From contig CAWKBC010000039.1 of the NCBI GenBank assembly GCA_963847705.1, positions 1 through 19,009 on the forward strand: 19,009 nucleotides of DNA, read 5' to 3'. This stretch comes from an uncultured Pseudomonadota bacterium (lineage in GTDB: Bacteria > Myxococcota_A > Polyangia > Fen-1088). This document shows positions 5,259-18,603 of this stretch, in pieces (the first letter of the stretch is position 1; every line of letters begins with the position of its first letter). A program made the position numbers and the translations under genes. The notes under the pieces are model-generated. The model did no database searches and had not been told where the DNA came from. It saw only the letters and a program-made list of their open reading frames with translations.

Positions 5259-6881
5259 CTACTCCATGTCGGCCATGACGATCGGCGGGTGGTGCATCAT
5301 GGTGATCTCGGGCGAGGGGCCGACGGCGCTCTTGGCCATGGCGATCGCCTCGGAGAGCGACTCGGCGCGCTCCCAGCCGAGCATCTTCGGCACGTGGGCG
5401 TTCTGGGCGCCGGCCACGATCACCTTGCCGACGTGCTGGCGACCGTGCTCGCCCCAGTACCACATGTTGAAGGGGTGAACGCCGTGGTAGGCGTTGCCGC
5501 GCCGGTACATCTCGATGTAGCTGGGGTTCTTGGCGAACTCCTCCTCGTACTTGCGGTGCATGATCATCGCATCGCGCGTCTCGGGGAGGATCCGGTTGAA
5601 GAACTCGATGTAGCTCGGGTGCTGGACGTGGTCGAACTCGTCGTAGACGGGATGGGTCAGGATCATCACCCCGCCCTTCTTCAGCACCGGCTTGCCGCGG
5701 AACATGTTGTGGAAGTACCCGAGCCCCATGGTCTGAACCAGGATGGGGTTCAGGATCGAATTGACGTTGTAGGGGCTGATGAACGGCACGCCGCAGATGA
5801 GGATGTCGGCCTGCCCCCGAACGTGCACGGCGTACTGCTCGAAGCAGCGGACCAGCGTCTTGGCGTGCACCGGCTCCGTCTTGCCGGCGTGGACGGCGAT
5901 CATCTGATACTGCGACGGGATCGCCTGAAACAGCTTCCGTTTCGCGCCGGCGGGCAGCTTGCTCAGGCTCCAGCGCATCGCCTCGAACTTCAGCCGATCG
6001 ATCTCGGTGAACTCGTCCTCGTTCTTCGACAGGAAGGCGGTGGGTCCGGCGAACATCCGGTTGTTCAGCACCGTCTCGATGTGAAAGACGTTCAGGTGCT
6101 GCTGGACGATGGCCCCCTGCCGCTCGATCTTGGTGTTCATCGTCGAGTGCTTGGGGTCCATGTAGCCCGACGAGCGCATCGTGGTCGGCTCGTGGTGCGG
6201 CCGGGTCACCTCGTAGTCGCCCAGGCCGATGGTCACCGACTTGTGGCCACCGTCCATGGGGACGAAGTTGATGTTGACGTAGATGACGAGGTCGCTCTCC
6301 ACCGCGCGCCGGTGGATGTTGACCACCTCCTTGTGCTCGGTCGTCCCCAGGTGAACGAAGCCATCGGGGTCCTCGACGTCGTTGCAGTAGTACCGGTCGG
6401 GATAGAAGGCGTCGTGGATCTTCGCGCCCACCATCCGCTTCATCTCGGGCTCGGTCATCTTCCGGTGCAGGCAGGTGGCGACGATGATGTGAACGTCGTC
6501 GACGCCGTTGGCGTCCAGCATCTCCAGCAGGATCTCGATGATGGTCTGCCGGATGTCCGGGGTGGCCATGGGCGGCAAGGGCACGCTGATGTCGTCGACC
6601 GCGATGGTCACCCGCATCCCGGGCGCCAGCTGCGCGTAGAGCGGATCGGCCTCGAGCGGGTGGTTGAGCGCGTAGCGGATCGCCGCGCCCGGGTTGGCCA
6701 GCCCCTCGATGGGCGGCTTCGGGTAGATGACCCGCGTCCCGATGGGCAGGTCCTCCAGCAGCAGATCCTCGCCGGAAAATAGAATGCGCGGCGCGGAATC
6801 CCCGTCGATGTAGACGACCTGATCGTCTTCCTTGTTGCGGGGGACAGGCCCGCGCAGAACCTTTGGAGCGCGTTCTCTCAT
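5259..6881 (-). CDS. Lactate racemase (LarA)/DUF2088-family protein
   Basis: [49 protein letters not shown] and LKKGGVMIL motifs of the LarA fold; SD-like AAGGTG upstream. Confidence 0.85.
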
Positions 6882-6888
6882 TTCACCT

Positions 6889-6995
6889 TTAGCGTAGGTC
6901 CCAAAGATGACCGGAGGGTCATCGCAAGTCCCAAAGATGACCGCAGGGTCATGGTAAATCCCAAAGATGACCGCAGGTCATCTCAAGTCCAAGAT
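6889..6995. repeat. Tandem ~30-bp repeat (3 full units plus partial copies), each full unit with a GATGACC-loop-GGTCAT(C) hairpin
   Basis: CCAAAGATGACCG starts at 6901, 6931 and 6961; partial GTCCAAGAT at 6987. The array overlaps the HAD stop codon. Confidence 0.95.
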
Positions 6996-7640
6996 TGGCC
7001 AGTCGTGCTGCATGGCCGTGTTGCGCAGGCGGAGGTCGGGATTGACCGCCGTCGGGTGGCCGACGACCGACAGCATCGGCAGGTCGCTCATGCTGTCGCT
7101 GTAGCCGTAACAGTCGGACAGATTCAGCTTCTCTTTCTCGGCGTAGATCCGCATCCAGCTCGCCTTCGTCGCGGAGGCCATCATGGGCGGCAGCAGCCGG
7201 CCGGTGGCGTATCCGTCCACGAATTCCAGTCGATTGGTCACATAGTCGTCGATCTTGAGGTGCTTGGCGAGCGGCCCGACGGTCAGATCCAGCGCGCCCG
7301 TCACCAGCACCTGCCGCAGCCCGAGCTGACGCGATTTGTCGATGAGCTCGTAGGCACCCGGGAAGATCGAGGGGCGCAGCACGGTGTCGAACAGCTCGTC
7401 GGCCAGCGCCCGCAGCCGATCCTCCGACTCGCCCTTGTAGCGGATGAAGAAGATGTCGTTGAAGAGGCGCCGGTTGAAGAAATCGGTGGCGAGAAACAGC
7501 GGAACGCTCAACATGGTCGCCGCCGTCTTGGTGATGCTCTTCAGGATCCCCTGCTGGTTGCGCGCGCTGAAGGCGAACGCATGGACGAGGTTCGTGCGGA
7601 CGAGGGTCCCGTCCAGATCGTAGAAAGCTGCGGCGGCCAT
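6978..7640 (-). CDS. HAD-superfamily subfamily IB hydrolase (SerB-like / lipid phosphatase)
   Basis: Start reassigned to ATG 7640 (MAAAAFYDLDGTL). Motif I DLDGT, motif II VTG, motif III K, motif IV YSDSMSD, and C-terminal PTAVNPD..L...A...WPILDLR. Confidence 0.93.
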   Translation of the reverse strand: MAAAAFYDLDGTLVRTNLVHAFAFSARNQQGILKSITKTAATMLSVPLFLATDFFNRRLFNDIFFIRYKGESEDRLRALADELFDTVLRPSIFPGAYELIDKSRQLGLRQVLVTGALDLTVGPLAKHLKIDDYVTNRLEFVDGYATGRLLPPMMASATKASWMRIYAEKEKLNLSDCYGYSDSMSDLPMLSVVGHPTAVNPDLRLRNTAMQHDWPILDLR

Positions 7641-9554: not shown

Positions 9555-11069
9555 TTGGACCACCGCCTGGTCGCATCCCCCCGAGCGACAGCGCTCCGTT
9601 CGATCTTCACTTATGTGGCTCTCGTGCCCCTCTTGACCCTCGTCGGCTGCGCCGGCAAAGGCGGCACCACCGCCACCGGCGGCAGCGGTGCCAGCGGTGG
9701 CGGTGGATCGAAAGGCTCCGGCGGCTCGCCCGCGACCGGCGGTGGCCCCGGCACCGGCGGCAACCCGGCCACGGCTGGCAGCGTTGGATCGACCGGCGGA
9801 ATCGTCGGCACCGGCGGCAGCCCCGGCACCGGCGGCAACCCCGCGACGGGCGGCAGCCCCGGCACCGGCGGCACACCAGCGACGGGCGGCTCGCCCGGCA
9901 CCGGTGGGACATCGACGGTCAGCGACGCGGGCACCGACGCCGCCTGCCAGACGGCCGACTACCAGTTCGTCCAGCAGATCCCGACGGTCTATCTGCTCGT
10001 CGATCGCTCGGGCAGCATGTTCCATTGCCTCGACTCCTCGAATCCCGTCTGCGACAACCAGATGGACACCTCCTGGTACACGTTGAAGACGGCGATCGAG
10101 TCAGTGATAAAGACGCTCGATTCGCAGGTGCGCTTCGGCTTCACCACGGTCTGGGGGACCAACCCGGCCGGATCCGGCGGGATGTGCCCGTCGCTGCAAG
10201 GGATGCTGACGGACAGCGTTGCGCCCGCGCTGAACAACGCCGCGACGATCACCGCCAAGTACGACGGCCTCCCCTGGCCGACCGCCGGCGGAAGCAGTAC
10301 GCCGGGCATGAAGTTCGAGTCTCCCGCCAGTGAGTCGATCGGCAACGTCGCGAAGGCGCTCATGGCCGACACCGATCCCGGGCCGAAGTACATCATCTTC
10401 CTCACCGACGGGCAGCCGGATTACTGCGACGACTCGCTCGCGCTCTGCGCCATCGACTCGGTCGTCTATCACCTGCAGGTGGCCCAGATGGCCGGCATCG
10501 ACACGATCGTCTTCGGCGTTCTCACGACGCAGTTCGATCTACCGGCGGGCACGCTCCAGGCATTCGCCAACGCCGGGGCCGGCGAGCCGACGATCGCGCC
10601 GGTCGGGTCAGGGCAGGACGTCAACGCCTTCTACGACCAGTGCGGCAACGGCAACATCGCCGGCTGGTTGGCCGACCTCGCCGCCTCCGGCAAGCCGAAG
10701 GCGCGGGGGACGTCGCTCGGTACCTACTCGACGACGATGGGGCCGACGAAGCCCTACCAGCCGATGGCCTCCGACGAGAGCATGCTGACAACGCAACTTT
10801 CGGCAGCGCTGGCCGGGGTGAAGAGCTGCTCGTTCGATCTGAGCGACGTCGACGGCAAGTCAATCAAGGTCGACACCACCCAGCTGGCGAAGGCGAGCGT
10901 GAAGGTCGAAGGGGTCACCGTTCCTCAGGACGCAACCAACGGCTGGAGCATCGACGCGACCTCTTCGAACACGCTGCTTTTCAACGGGACCGCCTGCACC
11001 AACTGGCGGATGCCGAACAACAACGACATCAGCTTCGCCTTCCCTTGCGGCACCATCATCTTCGAGTGA
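9555..11069 (+). CDS. vWA-domain lipoprotein with Gly-rich linker
   Basis: Start reassigned to in-frame TTG 9555, preceded by GGAGG at 9544-9548. Lipobox LVGC; MIDAS DRSGS and IFLTDGQPD; Cys-containing C-terminal domain. Confidence 0.88.
   Translation: MDHRLVASPRATALRSIFTYVALVPLLTLVGCAGKGGTTATGGSGASGGGGSKGSGGSPATGGGPGTGGNPATAGSVGSTGGIVGTGGSPGTGGNPATGGSPGTGGTPATGGSPGTGGTSTVSDAGTDAACQTADYQFVQQIPTVYLLVDRSGSMFHCLDSSNPVCDNQMDTSWYTLKTAIESVIKTLDSQVRFGFTTVWGTNPAGSGGMCPSLQGMLTDSVAPALNNAATITAKYDGLPWPTAGGSSTPGMKFESPASESIGNVAKALMADTDPGPKYIIFLTDGQPDYCDDSLALCAIDSVVYHLQVAQMAGIDTIVFGVLTTQFDLPAGTLQAFANAGAGEPTIAPVGSGQDVNAFYDQCGNGNIAGWLADLAASGKPKARGTSLGTYSTTMGPTKPYQPMASDESMLTTQLSAALAGVKSCSFDLSDVDGKSIKVDTTQLAKASVKVEGVTVPQDATNGWSIDATSSNTLLFNGTACTNWRMPNNNDISFAFPCGTIIFE
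9672..9909 (+). repeat. Coding tandem repeats (18-nt units encoding GG[S/N]P[G/A]T)
   Basis: Repeated CCCGGCACCGGCGGC / CCCGCGACGGGCGGC, encoding GGSPGTGGNPATGGSPGTGGTPAT. Confidence 0.85.
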
Positions 11070-11073
11070 ACCC

Positions 11074-12558
11074 ATGAATGACCATCGACTCTCCTTGTTG
11101 TGCGCGGCGACGCTGGCGTTCGGCTGCAGCGCCGGCGTGAGCGGGAAGACCGGCAGCGGCGGCTCCACCGGCACCGGCACCGGTGGCAGCGGCGGCTCCA
11201 CCGCCAGCGGCGGCTCCACCGCCAGCGGCGGACGCGGCGGCAGCTCCTCGACCGGCGGCTCCAACGGCACCGGCGGCAGCTCCAGCGGCACCGACGCCAG
11301 CCTGGACGGCGCCTGCGCGGCCTCCACGGTGGGCGCCCAGCCGGTCCCGCTCGATCTCTACTTCTTGATGGACAGCTCGAAGTCGATGAACGACCAGACG
11401 GGCGCCGGGACGACCAAGTGGGCCGCCGTCAGCTCGGCGCTGAACACCTTCTTCACCGACTCCGGCTCCGCCGGGCTCGGTGTGGCGCTCAAGTACTTCC
11501 CGGACGAGCAGTCGAAAGCCCCGGCCTCCTGCGCGATGGCGTCGGACTGCACGGTCGGCGGCACCAGCTACGGCGCCTGCGACTTCCGGGACACCTGCGT
11601 CAGCAGCGGCGCATCAACCACTGCCGTTTCCCCTCTGTGTATCGACGCCAGCACGTGCGGCACGCAGACCTGCTCTCGGATCAAGAGCTGCACCGACGGG
11701 AGCTACTGCGCCGCGGGACCGACGGCGCCCACGACCGCCTGCACCGGCTGCAGCGACTTCGCGGGGTACTGCCACCTGCGAGATATCTGCACGAGCAGCG
11801 AGTACGCCACCCCGAACGTCGCCATCGGGACGCTGCCGGGCGCAGCCTCCGGGCTCGCCTCATCGCTCTCGGGTCACACCCCCGACGGCTACACGCCGAC
11901 TGGACCCGCCCTGACCGGCGCCATCACCTGGGCGAAGCAGCAACAAACCAACAATCCAGACCACAAGGTGGCGATCGTGTTGGTGACCGACGGGCTGCCC
12001 GGGGGATTCATCCCGGGATTCCCGCCTGCAGAGTGCGCACCAAGTGATATTCCGGGGATCTCCGCGATTCTCAGCGGAGCGGCCACCGGAACGACCCCGA
12101 TCCTCACCTTCGTCGTCGGGATCTTTAACCTCAACTCGGCCGAAGGGATGATGGCACCGTCCAACCTGATGTCGCTGGCTCAGGCCGGCGGGACCGACAG
12201 CGCGGTCATCATCGACGTCACGGGGAACACCGTCACGCAACAGCTGCACGATGCGCTCGCCAAGGCGCAGAGCAAGGCGATCGCGTGCTCGTACTCCATC
12301 CCGCCGTCGACGGGGGGGACCGGCGTCGACTTCAACAAGGTCAACGTCCAGTTCACCGGCAGTGCCGGCTCGACCACCATCGGGCACACCGGCTCGTCGT
12401 CGGCTTGCGACAAGGGGGGCTGGTACTACGACGTCGATCCGGCGGCCGGGACGCCGACGAAGATCATCGCCTGCCCTTCGACCTGCACCCAGTTCAACGC
12501 GGACGTCAGCGGACACGTCGACATCGTCCTCGGCTGCGCCACCATCAGCGTCGGATAG
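11074..12558 (+). CDS. vWA-domain lipoprotein with Cys-rich insertion
   Basis: Lipobox AFGC; Gly/Ser linker; MIDAS DSSKS, TPTGPAL, VLVTDGLP; a Cys-rich segment inside the vWA domain; C-terminal GWYYD...CPSTC...LGCAT. Confidence 0.9.
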   Translation: MNDHRLSLLCAATLAFGCSAGVSGKTGSGGSTGTGTGGSGGSTASGGSTASGGRGGSSSTGGSNGTGGSSSGTDASLDGACAASTVGAQPVPLDLYFLMDSSKSMNDQTGAGTTKWAAVSSALNTFFTDSGSAGLGVALKYFPDEQSKAPASCAMASDCTVGGTSYGACDFRDTCVSSGASTTAVSPLCIDASTCGTQTCSRIKSCTDGSYCAAGPTAPTTACTGCSDFAGYCHLRDICTSSEYATPNVAIGTLPGAASGLASSLSGHTPDGYTPTGPALTGAITWAKQQQTNNPDHKVAIVLVTDGLPGGFIPGFPPAECAPSDIPGISAILSGAATGTTPILTFVVGIFNLNSAEGMMAPSNLMSLAQAGGTDSAVIIDVTGNTVTQQLHDALAKAQSKAIACSYSIPPSTGGTGVDFNKVNVQFTGSAGSTTIGHTGSSSACDKGGWYYDVDPAAGTPTKIIACPSTCTQFNADVSGHVDIVLGCATISVG

Positions 12559-14773
12559 CGTCGCCGAGATCGAACGCCGACCAGAGGCTGGAGGCGTCGT
12601 CGCTCCACCCTCGCCCCCCGGGCGGCAAGGGGCGCCAGCGCGCGTCGTGGCCGAGCGCCTGTAGGTCTCGCGCCTCGCGCGCGAGCACCACCCAGGCCGA
12701 CGGGGAGATCCCCGCATTCACCTCGGCCTCCGTCACGCCGCCGAACCGCTTGATACCAATCAGCCCCTCCGCGGCCGCGGCGCCCGCGACGACCGGCACG
12801 AGTGACAGGTACTGGTTCGACAGGTGAAACGCCAGCAGGCCCCCGGGCCCGAGCTTCCGCGCGTAGAGCGCGAGGGCCTCGCGGGTCAGCAGGTGGGCCG
12901 GCACGGCGTCCGAGCTGAAGGCGTCGAGCACCAGGAGCCCGAACGTCCCGTCAGGGACGCCGCCCAGCGACAGCCGACCGTCACCGAGCACGACGTCCAC
13001 CTGCCCGCGCGTGTCGGCGAGATAGCTGAAGAGGCCACGATCGCGCGCGATGTCCACGATGGCCGGATCGATCTCGAAGTAGGTCCAGTGCTCGCCAGGC
13101 GCTGCGTAGGCGGCGAGCGTGCCGACGCCGAGCCCGACGAGACCGACGCGCTGGCGCTGAGGTCGGCCGGCGAGCGCCTTCATGACGTCGCCGATCGGTC
13201 CGCCGCGGCTGTAGTAGGTGAGGGGCTCTCGGCGCCGGCCCGGCGCCAGATCCTGCGCGCCGTGAACGGTGTTTCCGTTGGCCAGCCTCAGCATCGAAGG
13301 TCCGACCCGCACCACCTTGTGGACGGCGTAGAAGCTGCGGGCCTCGAACACGATGTGCGCCGCCCCCTGCACGTAGAAGGCGCCCGAGGCCATCATCGCC
13401 GCCAGGCCCAGGCCGAACCGACGGGGCCGCCCGCGAAAGGCGTAGACGGCGCAGCCGGCCGCGGCCAGCAAGAAAGCGAGCGCCACGCTCTCGGCCCGCG
13501 GGCCGAGGTGAGCGGACGCTCGCCCGAGCACCCAGACGGCGCCCGTCAAGAGCACGGCCAGGACCGCCGGGAGCGTCAAATCGCGGCGTCGCTCGACCGG
13601 CCCGTCGACCGCAGACGCGGGCGCGGGCCGAAGCAGCGCCGCCGCCACGAAGCCGAGCGGATACTCCACGACCGAGCGAAACAGCACCGGCGCCAGGAAC
13701 ACGTTGAAGAGTCCGCCCAGGGCCCCGCCAAAGGCGACCCAGAGGTAGAACTCGGTCGACCGCGCGGCGGAGGGACGGCTGGCGGCCAGCGTCTGATGGC
13801 AGCAGAGCGCCGTCACGAAGAAGGTCGCCAGATGAACGGGGATGAGGACCAGCGCTCCCCCCACCGTCGTCAGGAACATCTCCGCGGCCAGCGGCACCAG
13901 CAAGAGAGGTTGCAGCCAGAGCATCCGCCGCGGGGAGAGCAGCTCCCGCCGGCTGAAGGCGAGGATGAACGTCGCCAGGTAGAGGGCCAGGGGGATCACC
14001 CAGAGGAGCGGCAGCGCGAGGAGATCGGTGGTCACGTAGGTGGTGACCGAGAGCAGGAGGCTCGAGGGGACCATCGCCAGGGCCAGCCAGCGCGCCCGTT
14101 CGCTCCAGCGCGGGCGGTCGAGGCCGACGCCGTCGCGCAGGGGCTCGGCCACCGGCAGCGGCGCCCGCTCACCCGGGCGCGACAGCTGGCGCACCGTCAC
14201 CATCGCGCAGGCCCCGACGAACCCGACCGCCAGCCCCAGGCCCCCGTTCCAGAGATGCCGCTGGCGAGCCAGACCGATGAGGGGTTCGATCACCACCGGG
14301 TAGGCGCAAAGCGCCACCAGGCTGCCCGTGTTGCTGGCGGCGTACAGAAAGTAGGGGTCGCCGGCGTGGCCGTGCCGCGTCGAGGCGACCCAGGCCTGCA
14401 GCAAGGGGGCCGTGGCGGCCAGCAGGACGAAGGGCGGGCCGATCGTCAGCGCCAGACGCGCGAACAGCCAGAGCGCCTGATGCGCGGGCGGCGGCGCCCA
14501 ACCCCCGAGCGCCGCGAGCGGGAGCAGCCAGGCGACGGCGGCCAGCACCGCGACGTGGAGCGCGGCGCTGGCCCGGGCCGGCAAGCGCGCGGCGAGGAGG
14601 TGGGCGTAGAGGTAACCGACCACCAGCGCGAGCTGAAAGAACGCGACCGACGTGGTCCAGACCACCGCCCCGCCGCCAAGCGCGGGGAGCAACCCCTTGG
14701 CGACGAGCGGTTCGACGGCGAACAGCAGCGACGACGTGAGGAACAGCGTCGTCGCGAAGAGCGGAACGAGCAC
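12545..14773 (-). CDS. Membrane-fused spermidine-synthase-like SAM-dependent methyltransferase
   Basis: Multi-TM N-terminus (LLFAVEPLVAK, DPYFLYAASNTGS), HGAQ, VGLGVGTLAAY, FEIDP, GDGRL, LDAFSSDAVPAHLLTREA, WSDD. Confidence 0.92.
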   Translation of the reverse strand: MLVPLFATTLFLTSSLLFAVEPLVAKGLLPALGGGAVVWTTSVAFFQLALVVGYLYAHLLAARLPARASAALHVAVLAAVAWLLPLAALGGWAPPPAHQALWLFARLALTIGPPFVLLAATAPLLQAWVASTRHGHAGDPYFLYAASNTGSLVALCAYPVVIEPLIGLARQRHLWNGGLGLAVGFVGACAMVTVRQLSRPGERAPLPVAEPLRDGVGLDRPRWSERARWLALAMVPSSLLLSVTTYVTTDLLALPLLWVIPLALYLATFILAFSRRELLSPRRMLWLQPLLLVPLAAEMFLTTVGGALVLIPVHLATFFVTALCCHQTLAASRPSAARSTEFYLWVAFGGALGGLFNVFLAPVLFRSVVEYPLGFVAAALLRPAPASAVDGPVERRRDLTLPAVLAVLLTGAVWVLGRASAHLGPRAESVALAFLLAAAGCAVYAFRGRPRRFGLGLAAMMASGAFYVQGAAHIVFEARSFYAVHKVVRVGPSMLRLANGNTVHGAQDLAPGRRREPLTYYSRGGPIGDVMKALAGRPQRQRVGLVGLGVGTLAAYAAPGEHWTYFEIDPAIVDIARDRGLFSYLADTRGQVDVVLGDGRLSLGGVPDGTFGLLVLDAFSSDAVPAHLLTREALALYARKLGPGGLLAFHLSNQYLSLVPVVAGAAAAEGLIGIKRFGGVTEAEVNAGISPSAWVVLAREARDLQALGHDARWRPLPPGGRGWSDDASSLWSAFDLGDAIRR

Positions 14774-14811: not shown

Positions 14812-16906
<2,095 letters not shown>

Positions 16907-17521: not shown

Positions 17522-18364
17522 TCAACCGATGGCAGCGGTCCGGACCAAGATCTCGCTGACCGGTCCGCGGCTGCGCCCGACCGAATTGATCGCGCGACGC
17601 GCGGGGACCTTCTGGTGCTTGAGCCCCGCGTAGAGCTGCAGCGTGGTGCGACAGTACGAGTTCGACAGGACGGCCGGGACGCTGTTTCGAGAGAGCTCAC
17701 CGAGCGCGTCGGCCAATCGTTGTTGATCCTCCTGTCCGAACGCGCGCTGCGCGTAGGCGGTGAACGAGGAGGTGCGCGACAGCGGCACGTAGGGGGGATC
17801 GAGGTAGACGAAGTCGTTCGCGCCCGGCTGGCACCCTTCGAGCATCTGGCGAAAATCGCCCAGGACGATCTCCACATTCTGTTGCAGCGCCCGCGAGGCC
17901 GCCGTCAAACGCGGAACATCGCAAATCGTCGGCCGTGCGTAGCGGCCGAAGGGCACGTTGAACTGCCCGCCGCTGTTCACCCGATAGAGCCCGTTGTAGC
18001 CGCAGCGATTGAGATAGATGACGCGGGCGGCGCGCGCGGCGCTGGAGAGCCGTGCCGGATCCTTGGCCCGAATTCTATAGTAGTCCACTGGGGTGTTGCG
18101 GTGCTTGCGCAGCTCCGCGATCACCGCCTCCACGTCGTCGCGCACCGTCTGGTAACAGTTGACCAGCTCGGGGTTGGCGTCGCCGAGCACGGCGCGAGTG
18201 AAGCGCTTCTCGGCCGCCAGGGCGAAGAACACCGCGCCGCCGCCCACGAAGGGCTCGCAGTAGGTGTCGATGCGCGCGGGTGCGAGAGCCAGAATGCGCG
18301 GCAACAACTGACGCTTGCCGCCCGCCCACTTGAGGAACGGCGCTGGCGGCGCACCATCATGCAT
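17522..18364 (-). CDS. dam: Dam-family (D12 class) DNA adenine methyltransferase, orphan within this window
   Basis: [51 protein letters not shown]. Start reassigned to ATG 18364. Confidence 0.93.
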
Positions 18365-18603
18365 GTTGCGTTCTTGCGTAGCGTGAATCGCTGGCGGCGT
18401 GCAAGCAAAAGGGATCGTCACTGATCCTCGGATCTCGAATCGTAGTCCAAGTCGTCCTCGCCGTTGCGTGCGTCACCCAGTTTTTACCGTCTTTTCTGCT
18501 GTTTTTTGTTCCGTCGCACGATCTTTCTCTTTAGAGTCTTGGGCCTGAAACAGCGGGCCGCGCAGCGTCCCCCGCTCCGACAAGCCAGGAAAAGGAGACC
18601 GAC

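What the first reader, a model, noticed from the sequence alone, without database searches (positions are those of the whole stretch)
6889..7000. Hairpin array that re-encodes the host gene's last codons in varying, mostly synonymous forms
Seen on the minus strand: four variants of the HAD terminus, GAC TTG AGA TGA (DLR*, in use), GAT TTA CCA TGA (DLP*), GAC TTG CGA TGA (DLR*) and GAC CTA CGC TAA (DLR*). They are separated by a near-constant CC(C)TSCGGTCATCTTTGG, which folds back on the preceding stop region. Variation concentrates in the codon-like part. The terminus in use has codons that look rare for this GC-rich sequence (CCA, TTG, AGA). Inference: scars of repeated stop-codon-targeted insertion or duplication that regenerates the gene 3' end (a palindromic mini-element or att-like site), with the TAA copy possibly ancestral. 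Alternatively, a processed mini repeat-spacer RNA.
Basis: partly seen in the sequence, partly recalled or inferred. Interest (0 to 1): 0.7.

Follow-up and report, generated by a model that had tools for sequence, protein, structure and literature searches.

The report
Gene-end repeats forming ribosome-relay mini-genes
In a group of soil myxobacteria, the last codons of one gene are copied in tandem into the gap before the next gene, and each copy forms a tiny reading frame running from a stop codon to the next start codon, which likely hands ribosomes on to the second gene, as proposed for the MIRU repeats of mycobacteria.

Summary
The array is real: three 29-30-nt hairpin units plus an older gene-end copy, between a HAD phosphatase gene and a LarAH gene of a Polyangia bacterium. 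It is not a mobile element: the core occurs only at this junction in 89 family genomes. Relatives carry 0-3 units. Across homologous junctions whose HAD ends in RTGA, 42 of 46 distinct spacers form such a chain ending on the LarAH start (null mean 18); 22 of 23 roughly independent length changes do (null mean 9.8), including unrelated insertions. Junctions without RTGA show no frame bias. Best reading: a slippage-born, single-locus repeat of the stop/start junction, filtered by selection to keep translational coupling through throw-away mini-ORFs (about 0.72). Translation itself is untested. It works like mycobacterial MIRUs but fails membership (not dispersed, shorter, made from the host gene's own end). 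This scan has noted the same relay design on other DNA several times.

The parts
6978..7640 (-). HAD-IB family hydrolase gene (220 aa); ends DLR-TGA, the stop overlapping an ATG (ATGA)
   Evidence: Pfam PF12710 E 3.7e-30; TIGR01490 above cut-off; start from my gene caller
6953..6981 (-). Repeat unit 1 (29 nt): ATG overlapping the HAD stop, hairpin, then a copy of the gene end
6923..6952 (-). Repeat unit 2 (30 nt)
6893..6922 (-). Repeat unit 3 (30 nt), running into the older gene-end copy
6949..6981 (-). Mini-ORF 1, [10 protein letters not shown], starts at -4 on the HAD stop, ends on the next ATGA (translation inferred)
6878..6952 (-). Mini-ORF 2, 24 codons through units 2 and 3, ends on the ATGA of the LarAH start (translation inferred; frame depends on two homopolymer C's that may be sequencing errors, in which case it is two 10-codon ORFs ending at the TAA)
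6965..6983 (-). Hairpin of unit 1 (8 pairs, 3-nt loop) covering the HAD stop and the mini-ORF ATG; units 2 and 3 have 6-7-pair equivalents at 6952-6937 and 6923-6906
6882..6900 (-). Older gene-end copy GAC CTA CGC TAA plus the 7-nt spacer AGGTGAA (SD-like; also holds a GTG-AAA-TGA micro-ORF ending on the LarAH start)
   Evidence: same junction in unit-free relative L007
5259..6881 (-). LarAH14/15/16-family gene (540 aa, Lar_N domain), the receiving gene
   Evidence: Pfam PF09861; NCBIfam NF052592, 818 bits over cut-off 740

Best explanation
The array is a single-locus tandem repeat of the HAD gene's stop/start junction in which every unit opens a mini reading frame at an ATG overlapping the previous stop and the chain ends on the LarAH start codon; it likely works as a ribosome relay that keeps LarAH translation coupled to HAD translation. 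Shown: the duplication, copy-number variation (0-3), absence elsewhere, and a strong frame constraint on this spacer whatever its sequence. Inferred: (1) origin by replication slippage; the linker's first bases GACCTGCGGTC differ by one base from a real HAD end, GAC CTG CGG TGA, so the hairpin is probably a duplicated gene end perfected into a palindrome; (2) one origin in the genus ancestor, then expansions and repeated collapse between the direct repeats; (3) terminating ribosomes reinitiate at each ATGA, helped by the GGA six bases upstream that every copy keeps; length changes that would send them past the LarAH start out of frame are purged; (4) the hairpin hides the mini-ORF ATG until a ribosome arrives, and may also promote slippage. 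The peptides are probably irrelevant.
For: Chain in the window. Of 88 distinct HAD-LarAH junctions with a gap over 3 nt, the 46 ending in RTGA have gap mod 3 of 37/6/3 (1/0/2) and 42 form a chain ending -4..+1 from the LarAH start, 0 overshoot, 0 in-frame extension; random-indel null mean 18.2, maximum 31 in 2000. Three of the four misses end at TAA 7 nt before the start, as in L007; L067 ends 4 nt short. The 42 not ending in RTGA have mod 3 of 13/18/11, and a forced start gives 12 of 42. One representative for each of 23 spacer lineages: 22 coupled, null mean 9.8, maximum 19 in 20000. Unrelated inserts obey it too (L021 139 nt, L063 109 nt, L003 106 nt, L026 100 nt). Unit lengths are 29, 26 (relay) or 30, 9 (in-frame read-through), never 28 or 31. 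Peptides vary freely (MTCG/MTFG/MTYG/VTRS/MTLR). Stem positions change 0.67 times per site against 2.57 at 151 four-fold sites on the same 15 taxa; one two-sided change (L005), two G-U swaps. Genome-wide in G000, for gaps of 4-20 nt after RTGA the relay frame is favoured 33:4 against 75:58 in controls, p 1.8e-4. The same pattern holds at actA-actB, argJ-argR and ureF-ureG across the genus. Published basis: reinitiation falls off within about 20 nt (PMC10666635); MIRUs carry a coupled ORF (PMC12548453).
Against: No translation or expression data; RNA contigs are from relatives and none spans the junction. The unit is dispensable: 14 of 21 genus genomes and 56 of 56 other family junctions lack it, and 36 of 42 non-RTGA junctions have no start near the stop, so coupling is not required family-wide. 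In the window's own subclade both a TAA exit and an ATGA exit exist, so the window alone is not a test (left out). If in-frame extension is counted as equally acceptable the null reaches 22 of 23 in 0.9% of runs. The genome-wide signal is weak at 21-60 nt (17:9, p 0.09) and absent beyond 60 nt, and rests on my own crude gene caller. Exceptions exist: ureF-ureG L266 overshoots, 4 of 20 end 2-6 nt short; 4 of 23 cysD-cysN junctions give no chain. The hairpin is broken in L111, L136 (first copy) and L003. Lineages were grouped by hand on a tree with several unreliable long branches.
Confidence: 0.72

Rival explanations
1. Damage avoidance, not relay: ribosomes do reinitiate at the ATGA, but LarAH is translated from its own ribosome-binding site; selection only removes spacers whose accidental ORF would run across and block the LarAH start.
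For: 0 of 46 overshoot. Many spacers carry GAGG/GGAGG or AAGGTGA before the LarAH start. L111 has lost the overlapping ATG (stop is TAA) and keeps the gene. Many family members have no coupling at all (36 of 42 non-RTGA junctions).
Against: It predicts early-terminating and in-frame ORFs as often as exact exits; observed 42 exact exits, 0 in-frame extensions (null 14.1) of 46. Multi-step chains re-couple at each ATGA (L091, L005, L273).
Confidence: 0.13
2. The hairpin or the MTCGHLW peptide is a regulatory element (attenuator-like leader, or a palindromic operator ATGACC-N3/4-GGTCAT) whose copy number tunes LarAH expression.
For: Stem conserved beyond four-fold sites with one two-sided change; third position of the Leu codon in the mini-ORF frame is the most variable site (6 changes); the unit raises predicted structure around the LarAH start by about 3-8 kcal/mol in five carrier/non-carrier pairs.
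Against: Non-synonymous and frameshift variants are common; the unit has been lost in many lineages; the palindrome occurs nowhere else in the genome, unlike an operator; no promoter or terminator match over the array.
Confidence: 0.07
3. A neutral slippage VNTR: the ATGA chains are a by-product of duplicating a junction that already contained ATGA.
For: The genome has many intergenic tandem repeats; simple gene-end duplications without hairpin occur in other genera (L050, L055, L068, L080, L014); copy number is polymorphic.
Against: Neutral indels would fill all three frames; they do so only where HAD does not end in RTGA. 22 of 23 lineages coupled against a null maximum of 19. The stem is conserved.
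Confidence: 0.04
4. One reading: a palindromic mini-element or att-like site that inserts at stop codons and regenerates the gene end, gained independently in many lineages; or a processed repeat-spacer RNA.
For: Carriers are scattered over all subclades of the genus among non-carriers, and the last copy in each array resembles the plain junction of its nearest non-carrier, as repeated gain with target duplication would give.
Against: No copy outside this junction in 89 genomes; no Y1 transposase or Cas1 match in G000 (85% complete); no Rfam match; deletion between direct repeats explains the scatter, and soil contigs show such skips of 59-60, 66, 95 and 115 nt.
Confidence: 0.04

Closest known systems
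MIRUs, mycobacterial interspersed repetitive units (Supply et al. 1997; not held; seen only as passages in PMC12548453, and PMC3184786)
   Same: Intergenic repeat inside an operon, variable copy number, internal inverted repeat, an ORF whose ends overlap the flanking genes at -4, proposed to spare downstream expression.
   Different: MIRUs are 40-100 bp, 40-50 copies per genome, with empty and filled sites suggesting transposition. This unit is 29-30 nt, at one junction only, and built from the host gene's own last codons. Sequence relatedness to MIRUs was not tested.
Translational coupling by termination-reinitiation at ATGA/TGATG overlaps (PMC10666635 passages; PMC12548453 part 1 of 7 and passages)
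   Same: Uses -4, -1 and 0/+1 stop-start spacings; strong distance dependence explains why a 96-nt gap needs a bridge.
   Different: Described for two real genes; here coupling passes through one to three disposable ORFs in series.
RTGA-coupled small ORFs of mycobacteria (Shell et al. 2015, PMC4633059 passages)
   Same: Coupled architecture conserved while the small peptide is not.
   Different: Those ORFs start leaderless at transcript 5' ends; these start on the stop codon of an upstream gene.
Integron attC short ORFs and attI1 ORF-11 (review PMC8876359 passages)
   Same: A short ORF inside a hairpin-forming spacer carries ribosomes to the next gene by termination-reinitiation.
   Different: No integrase, no GTTRRRY-type recombination site or cassette array seen here; the unit is a gene-end copy.
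REP/BIME palindromes (features partly recalled; PMC3184786 passages)
   Same: Short G+C hairpin just after a stop codon, in tandem.
   Different: Not dispersed, no Y1/RAYT transposase match.

Membership tests
MIRU | Intergenic repeat within an operon with variable copy number | tested here: met
   0-3 units at the HAD-LarAH junction; co-transcription itself not shown
MIRU | Internal ORF whose ends overlap the flanking genes (-4 coupling) | tested here: met
MIRU | Internal inverted repeat | tested here: met
MIRU | Dispersed, about 40-50 copies per genome | tested here: not met
   3 core matches in G000, all here; 5 pattern matches in 89 genomes, all at this junction
MIRU | Unit length about 40-100 bp | tested here: not met
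   26-30 nt
MIRU | Sequence homology to mycobacterial MIRUs | not tested
   No MIRU sequence was fetched
Termination-reinitiation coupling | Stop and start within about -8..+10 nt at each hand-over | tested here: met
   -4 at all three hand-overs in the window
Termination-reinitiation coupling | Downstream translation depends on upstream translation | not testable with these tools
   needs a reporter or ribosome profiling
REP / MITE / att-like element | Multiple copies at unrelated loci | tested here: not met
REP / MITE / att-like element | Cognate transposase or recombinase | tested here: inconclusive
   no PF01797 match in G000, 85% complete; other transposase families not searched; none among the 10 window proteins scanned
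CRISPR-like repeat-spacer RNA | Unique spacers of about 20-40 nt and cas genes | tested here: not met
   variable parts are 8-9-nt gene-end copies; no Cas1; no Rfam match at E<=5

The most novel reading that the evidence does not exclude
In this myxobacterial family, chains of disposable stop-to-start mini-ORFs are a general, selected layer of operon architecture: any duplication or repeat insertion at an RTGA junction survives only if it relays ribosomes to the next start, and at HAD-LarAH a self-made hairpin unit has become a copy-number dial (0-3 reinitiation steps) that tunes the ratio of the two proteins.
Probability: 0.25. Interest if true: 0.6.

Novelty: new variant of a known kind. Interest (0 to 1): 0.38.

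Why it matters
It is a natural experiment on translational coupling: dozens of independent spacer changes at one junction keep a stop-to-start chain while sequence and peptide drift, which is comparative evidence for a mechanism that the 2025 review (PMC12548453) lists as proposed. It gives ready-made allelic series (0, 1, 2, 3 units; with and without stem) for measuring reinitiation loss per hand-over, and it warns that short 'intergenic' spacers and repeats in operons can be frame-constrained, unannotated ORFs. The concept itself is known in outline from MIRUs, so the surprise is moderate.

Tried and rejected
Dispersed element: exact core and hairpin searches in G000 and a degenerate pattern in 89 genomes found nothing outside the junction. 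Structured RNA family: 0 Rfam matches. Promoter/terminator: none over the array. RAYT and Cas1: no match. Rare codons as insertion scars: rejected, non-carriers have them too. Conserved peptide: rejected. Read support for the exact window allele: no run holds half of the words; the contigs laid are from relatives, one (X3 record 12) spans the array with 13 differences and 2 gaps; RNA contigs do not bridge the junction, so transcription is not shown. The roughly 80-nt dispersed repeat of G000 as a systematic relay element: of 26 clusters between co-directional genes only a few follow an RTGA stop and only one of those printed ended on the next start, so not general, although it does relay in argJ-argR. 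Literature: searches found no paper on such a repeat in Myxococcota; the library lacks most subscription papers, and Supply 1997 is not held. A term search of bioRxiv 10.64898/2026.09.10.750558 gave no hits. Place and sequence look-ups of earlier findings returned unrelated notes. Orthology of the gene pair to Myxococcus elbB-elbC was not tested.

Full report
Observation. Repeat finders give a period of 30 with 3.1 copies. The strand folds better than 200 of 200 shuffles (z -3.1). The upstream gene is a HAD-IB hydrolase and the downstream gene a LarAH14/15/16-family protein. The closest named relatives are Polyangia (Myxococcota) MAGs. A review says that M. xanthus elbB encodes a HAD protein followed by elbC of unknown function (PMC9131029 passages); that this pair is elbB-elbC is my untested guess.

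Not a dispersed element. The 12-nt core occurs three times in G000, all here. A degenerate unit pattern matched five times in 89 family genomes, always at this junction. There is no Y1 transposase or Cas1 match in G000, which is 85% complete, and no Rfam match.

Relatives. I collected 162 loci from genome handles and a metagenome scan. Eight lacked a HAD end, a stop or the LarAH gene, and one (L082) was miscalled and dropped later, leaving 115 distinct junctions. The unit or a remnant is present in 7 of 21 genus genomes, 0 of 56 other family junctions and 11 of 70 metagenome junctions, in one to three copies. On a tree of 149 sequences (several long branches are unreliable) carriers are scattered through all subclades of the genus. 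The last copy of each array resembles the plain junction of the nearest non-carrier; L007 has exactly the window's DLR-TAA-AGGTGAA-ATG end with no unit. Soil contigs skip 59-60, 66, 95 and 115 nt here. One origin followed by expansion and collapse between direct repeats is the simplest history, but it is inferred. The linker begins with a sequence one base away from a real HAD end (GAC CTG CGG TGA, seen in L036, L094, L132), which is itself nearly palindromic, and plain gene-end duplications occur in other genera (L050, L055, L068, L080). So slippage plus one palindrome-perfecting change can make the unit (inference).

The hidden feature. The HAD stop is part of ATGA. Read from that ATG, unit 1 gives [10 protein letters not shown] and stops on the next ATGA; the next ORF runs 24 codons and stops on the ATGA of the LarAH start. 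Among 88 distinct junctions with a gap over 3 nt, 46 end HAD in RTGA. Of these 42 give a chain ending -4 to +1 from the LarAH start, none overshoots and none extends LarAH in frame; the random-indel null gives 18.2 coupled, 14.1 extended, 9.6 overshooting. Three misses stop at TAA seven bases before the start and one stops four bases short. The 42 junctions without RTGA have no frame bias and give 12 of 42 with a forced start. Because kin are not independent I picked one representative for each of 23 spacer lineages by hand, leaving out the window's own subclade (five junctions, two possible exits) and the other 13-nt spacers that may share an ancestor: 22 of 23 are coupled, null mean 9.8, maximum 19 in 20000; if in-frame extension is also allowed the null reaches 22 in 0.9% of runs. 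Inserts with no relation to the unit obey the rule (100-139 nt in L003, L021, L026, L063). Unit lengths are 29 or 26 (new ORF at each ATGA) or 30 and 9 (read-through in frame), never 28 or 31. Peptides differ freely.

The hairpin. In 24 unit copies the six core pairs are kept in 21. On the 15 taxa with a first unit, stem positions change 0.67 times per site against 2.57 at four-fold sites; L005 shows a change on both sides, L004 and L091 G-U swaps, and the stem is broken in L111 (which has also lost the ATG), L136 and L003. Part of the 5' arm is constrained by HAD coding, so this is modest evidence. Every copy keeps GGA six bases before the next ATG, a minimal Shine-Dalgarno by established knowledge. 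The low GC3 of the HAD end is shared by non-carriers and fits selection for an open initiation region (inference).

Beyond this locus. With a simple gene caller (4530 genes), 63 of 172 RTGA-ending genes not directly coupled show a relay, against 156 of 1043 controls. That comparison is inflated by removing direct cases; by frame alone the excess is 33:4 versus 75:58 for gaps of 4-20 nt (p 1.8e-4), 17:9 versus 68:78 for 21-60 nt (p 0.09), and nil beyond. I followed 4 of 12 fetched G000 relay junctions across the genus (chosen because G000 has a relay; gene names actA-actB, argJ, ureF and cysD-cysN are from my reading of the sequences, argR and ureG). actA-actB: 22 of 24 coupled, two uncalled by the script. 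argJ-argR: 6 of 6 long RTGA spacers relay. ureF-ureG: 14 of 20 coupled, one overshoot, four ending 2-6 nt short, one uncalled. cysD-cysN: 8 coupled, 10 in-frame, 4 without chain, one uncalled (tallied by hand).

Mechanism. Reinitiation drops sharply within about 20 nt of the stop (PMC10666635 passages), so a 96-nt gap would uncouple the genes unless bridged. I conclude that the array is a slippage-born repeat filtered by selection so that terminating ribosomes can step from ATGA to ATGA to the LarAH start (0.72). The main rival is that selection only avoids an ORF running over the start (0.13). No translation data exist here, and many family members run LarAH without coupling. Why in-frame extension is never seen at this junction, while common at cysD-cysN, is unexplained.

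Known systems. The 2025 review (PMC12548453, part 1 of 7 and passages) describes MIRUs as inserting at start codons with a -4-coupled ORF; PMC3184786 (passages) gives 40-100 bp and 40-50 copies. Integron attC ORFs (PMC8876359 passages) and mycobacterial RTGA-coupled small ORFs (PMC4633059 passages) work alike. Huber 2019 and the LarAH papers were seen only as search listings; no supplements were read. This array works like a MIRU but is not one: single locus, shorter, self-derived. Searches found no description in Myxococcota. Earlier notes of this scan report the same design in other lineages (looked up after I had reached the MIRU reading); they are unchecked and are not evidence.

Verdict. 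Observation confirmed, interpretation partly supported, new variant of a known kind, interest 0.38.

Noticed in passing
G000, about 66 clusters (e.g. C27:884485-884715, C27:651872-652142, C17:39656-39963); one copy inside the unit in L003: A dispersed repeat of about 80 nt with two hairpins (GGGAACCC-N-GGGTTCCC type), single or in tandem arrays of 2-4 with period 78-84; 99 blast hits. At argJ-argR it sits on GTGA with a duplicated gene end and relays in 1-3 copies (L205-L210): a closer MIRU analogue than the finding itself.
   Followed up: partly
window 14812-16906, minus strand, near 15310: The elongation factor G gene is split by a single-base frameshift at a GATC (TIGR00484 match ends at residue 549; the rest is in the ORF 14812-15225); probably an assembly error.
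   Followed up: partly
window 11066-11077, plus strand: Another micro-relay in the window: the gene ending at 11069 ends in GTGA and reads VNP-stop onto the ATG at 11074.
   Followed up: no
L110, L157: Distant HAD homologs (58% identity) ending with the same ILDLR-TGA/ATGA junction but followed by a different gene.
   Followed up: no
L021, L026, L161: A second intergenic repeat type (GGGGGTGCGGGGGGACGCAG-like) inserted at the same junction in three lineages; only 2 blast hits each in G000.
   Followed up: no
G000 C27:831774, C29:75544, C29:170361, C29:372958, C34:226143, C35:61474, C47:33053: Other near-perfect 20-46-nt tandem repeats of lower GC, not examined for coupling.
   Followed up: no
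G051 (L044, L051): This genome has two HAD-LarAH loci, one grouping inside the window's genus on the tree: contamination or transfer.
   Followed up: no
window 17522-18421 and 12545-14773, minus strand: A D12-class adenine methyltransferase and a fused MFS/spermidine-synthase-like gene lie in the window; ordinary.
   Followed up: no
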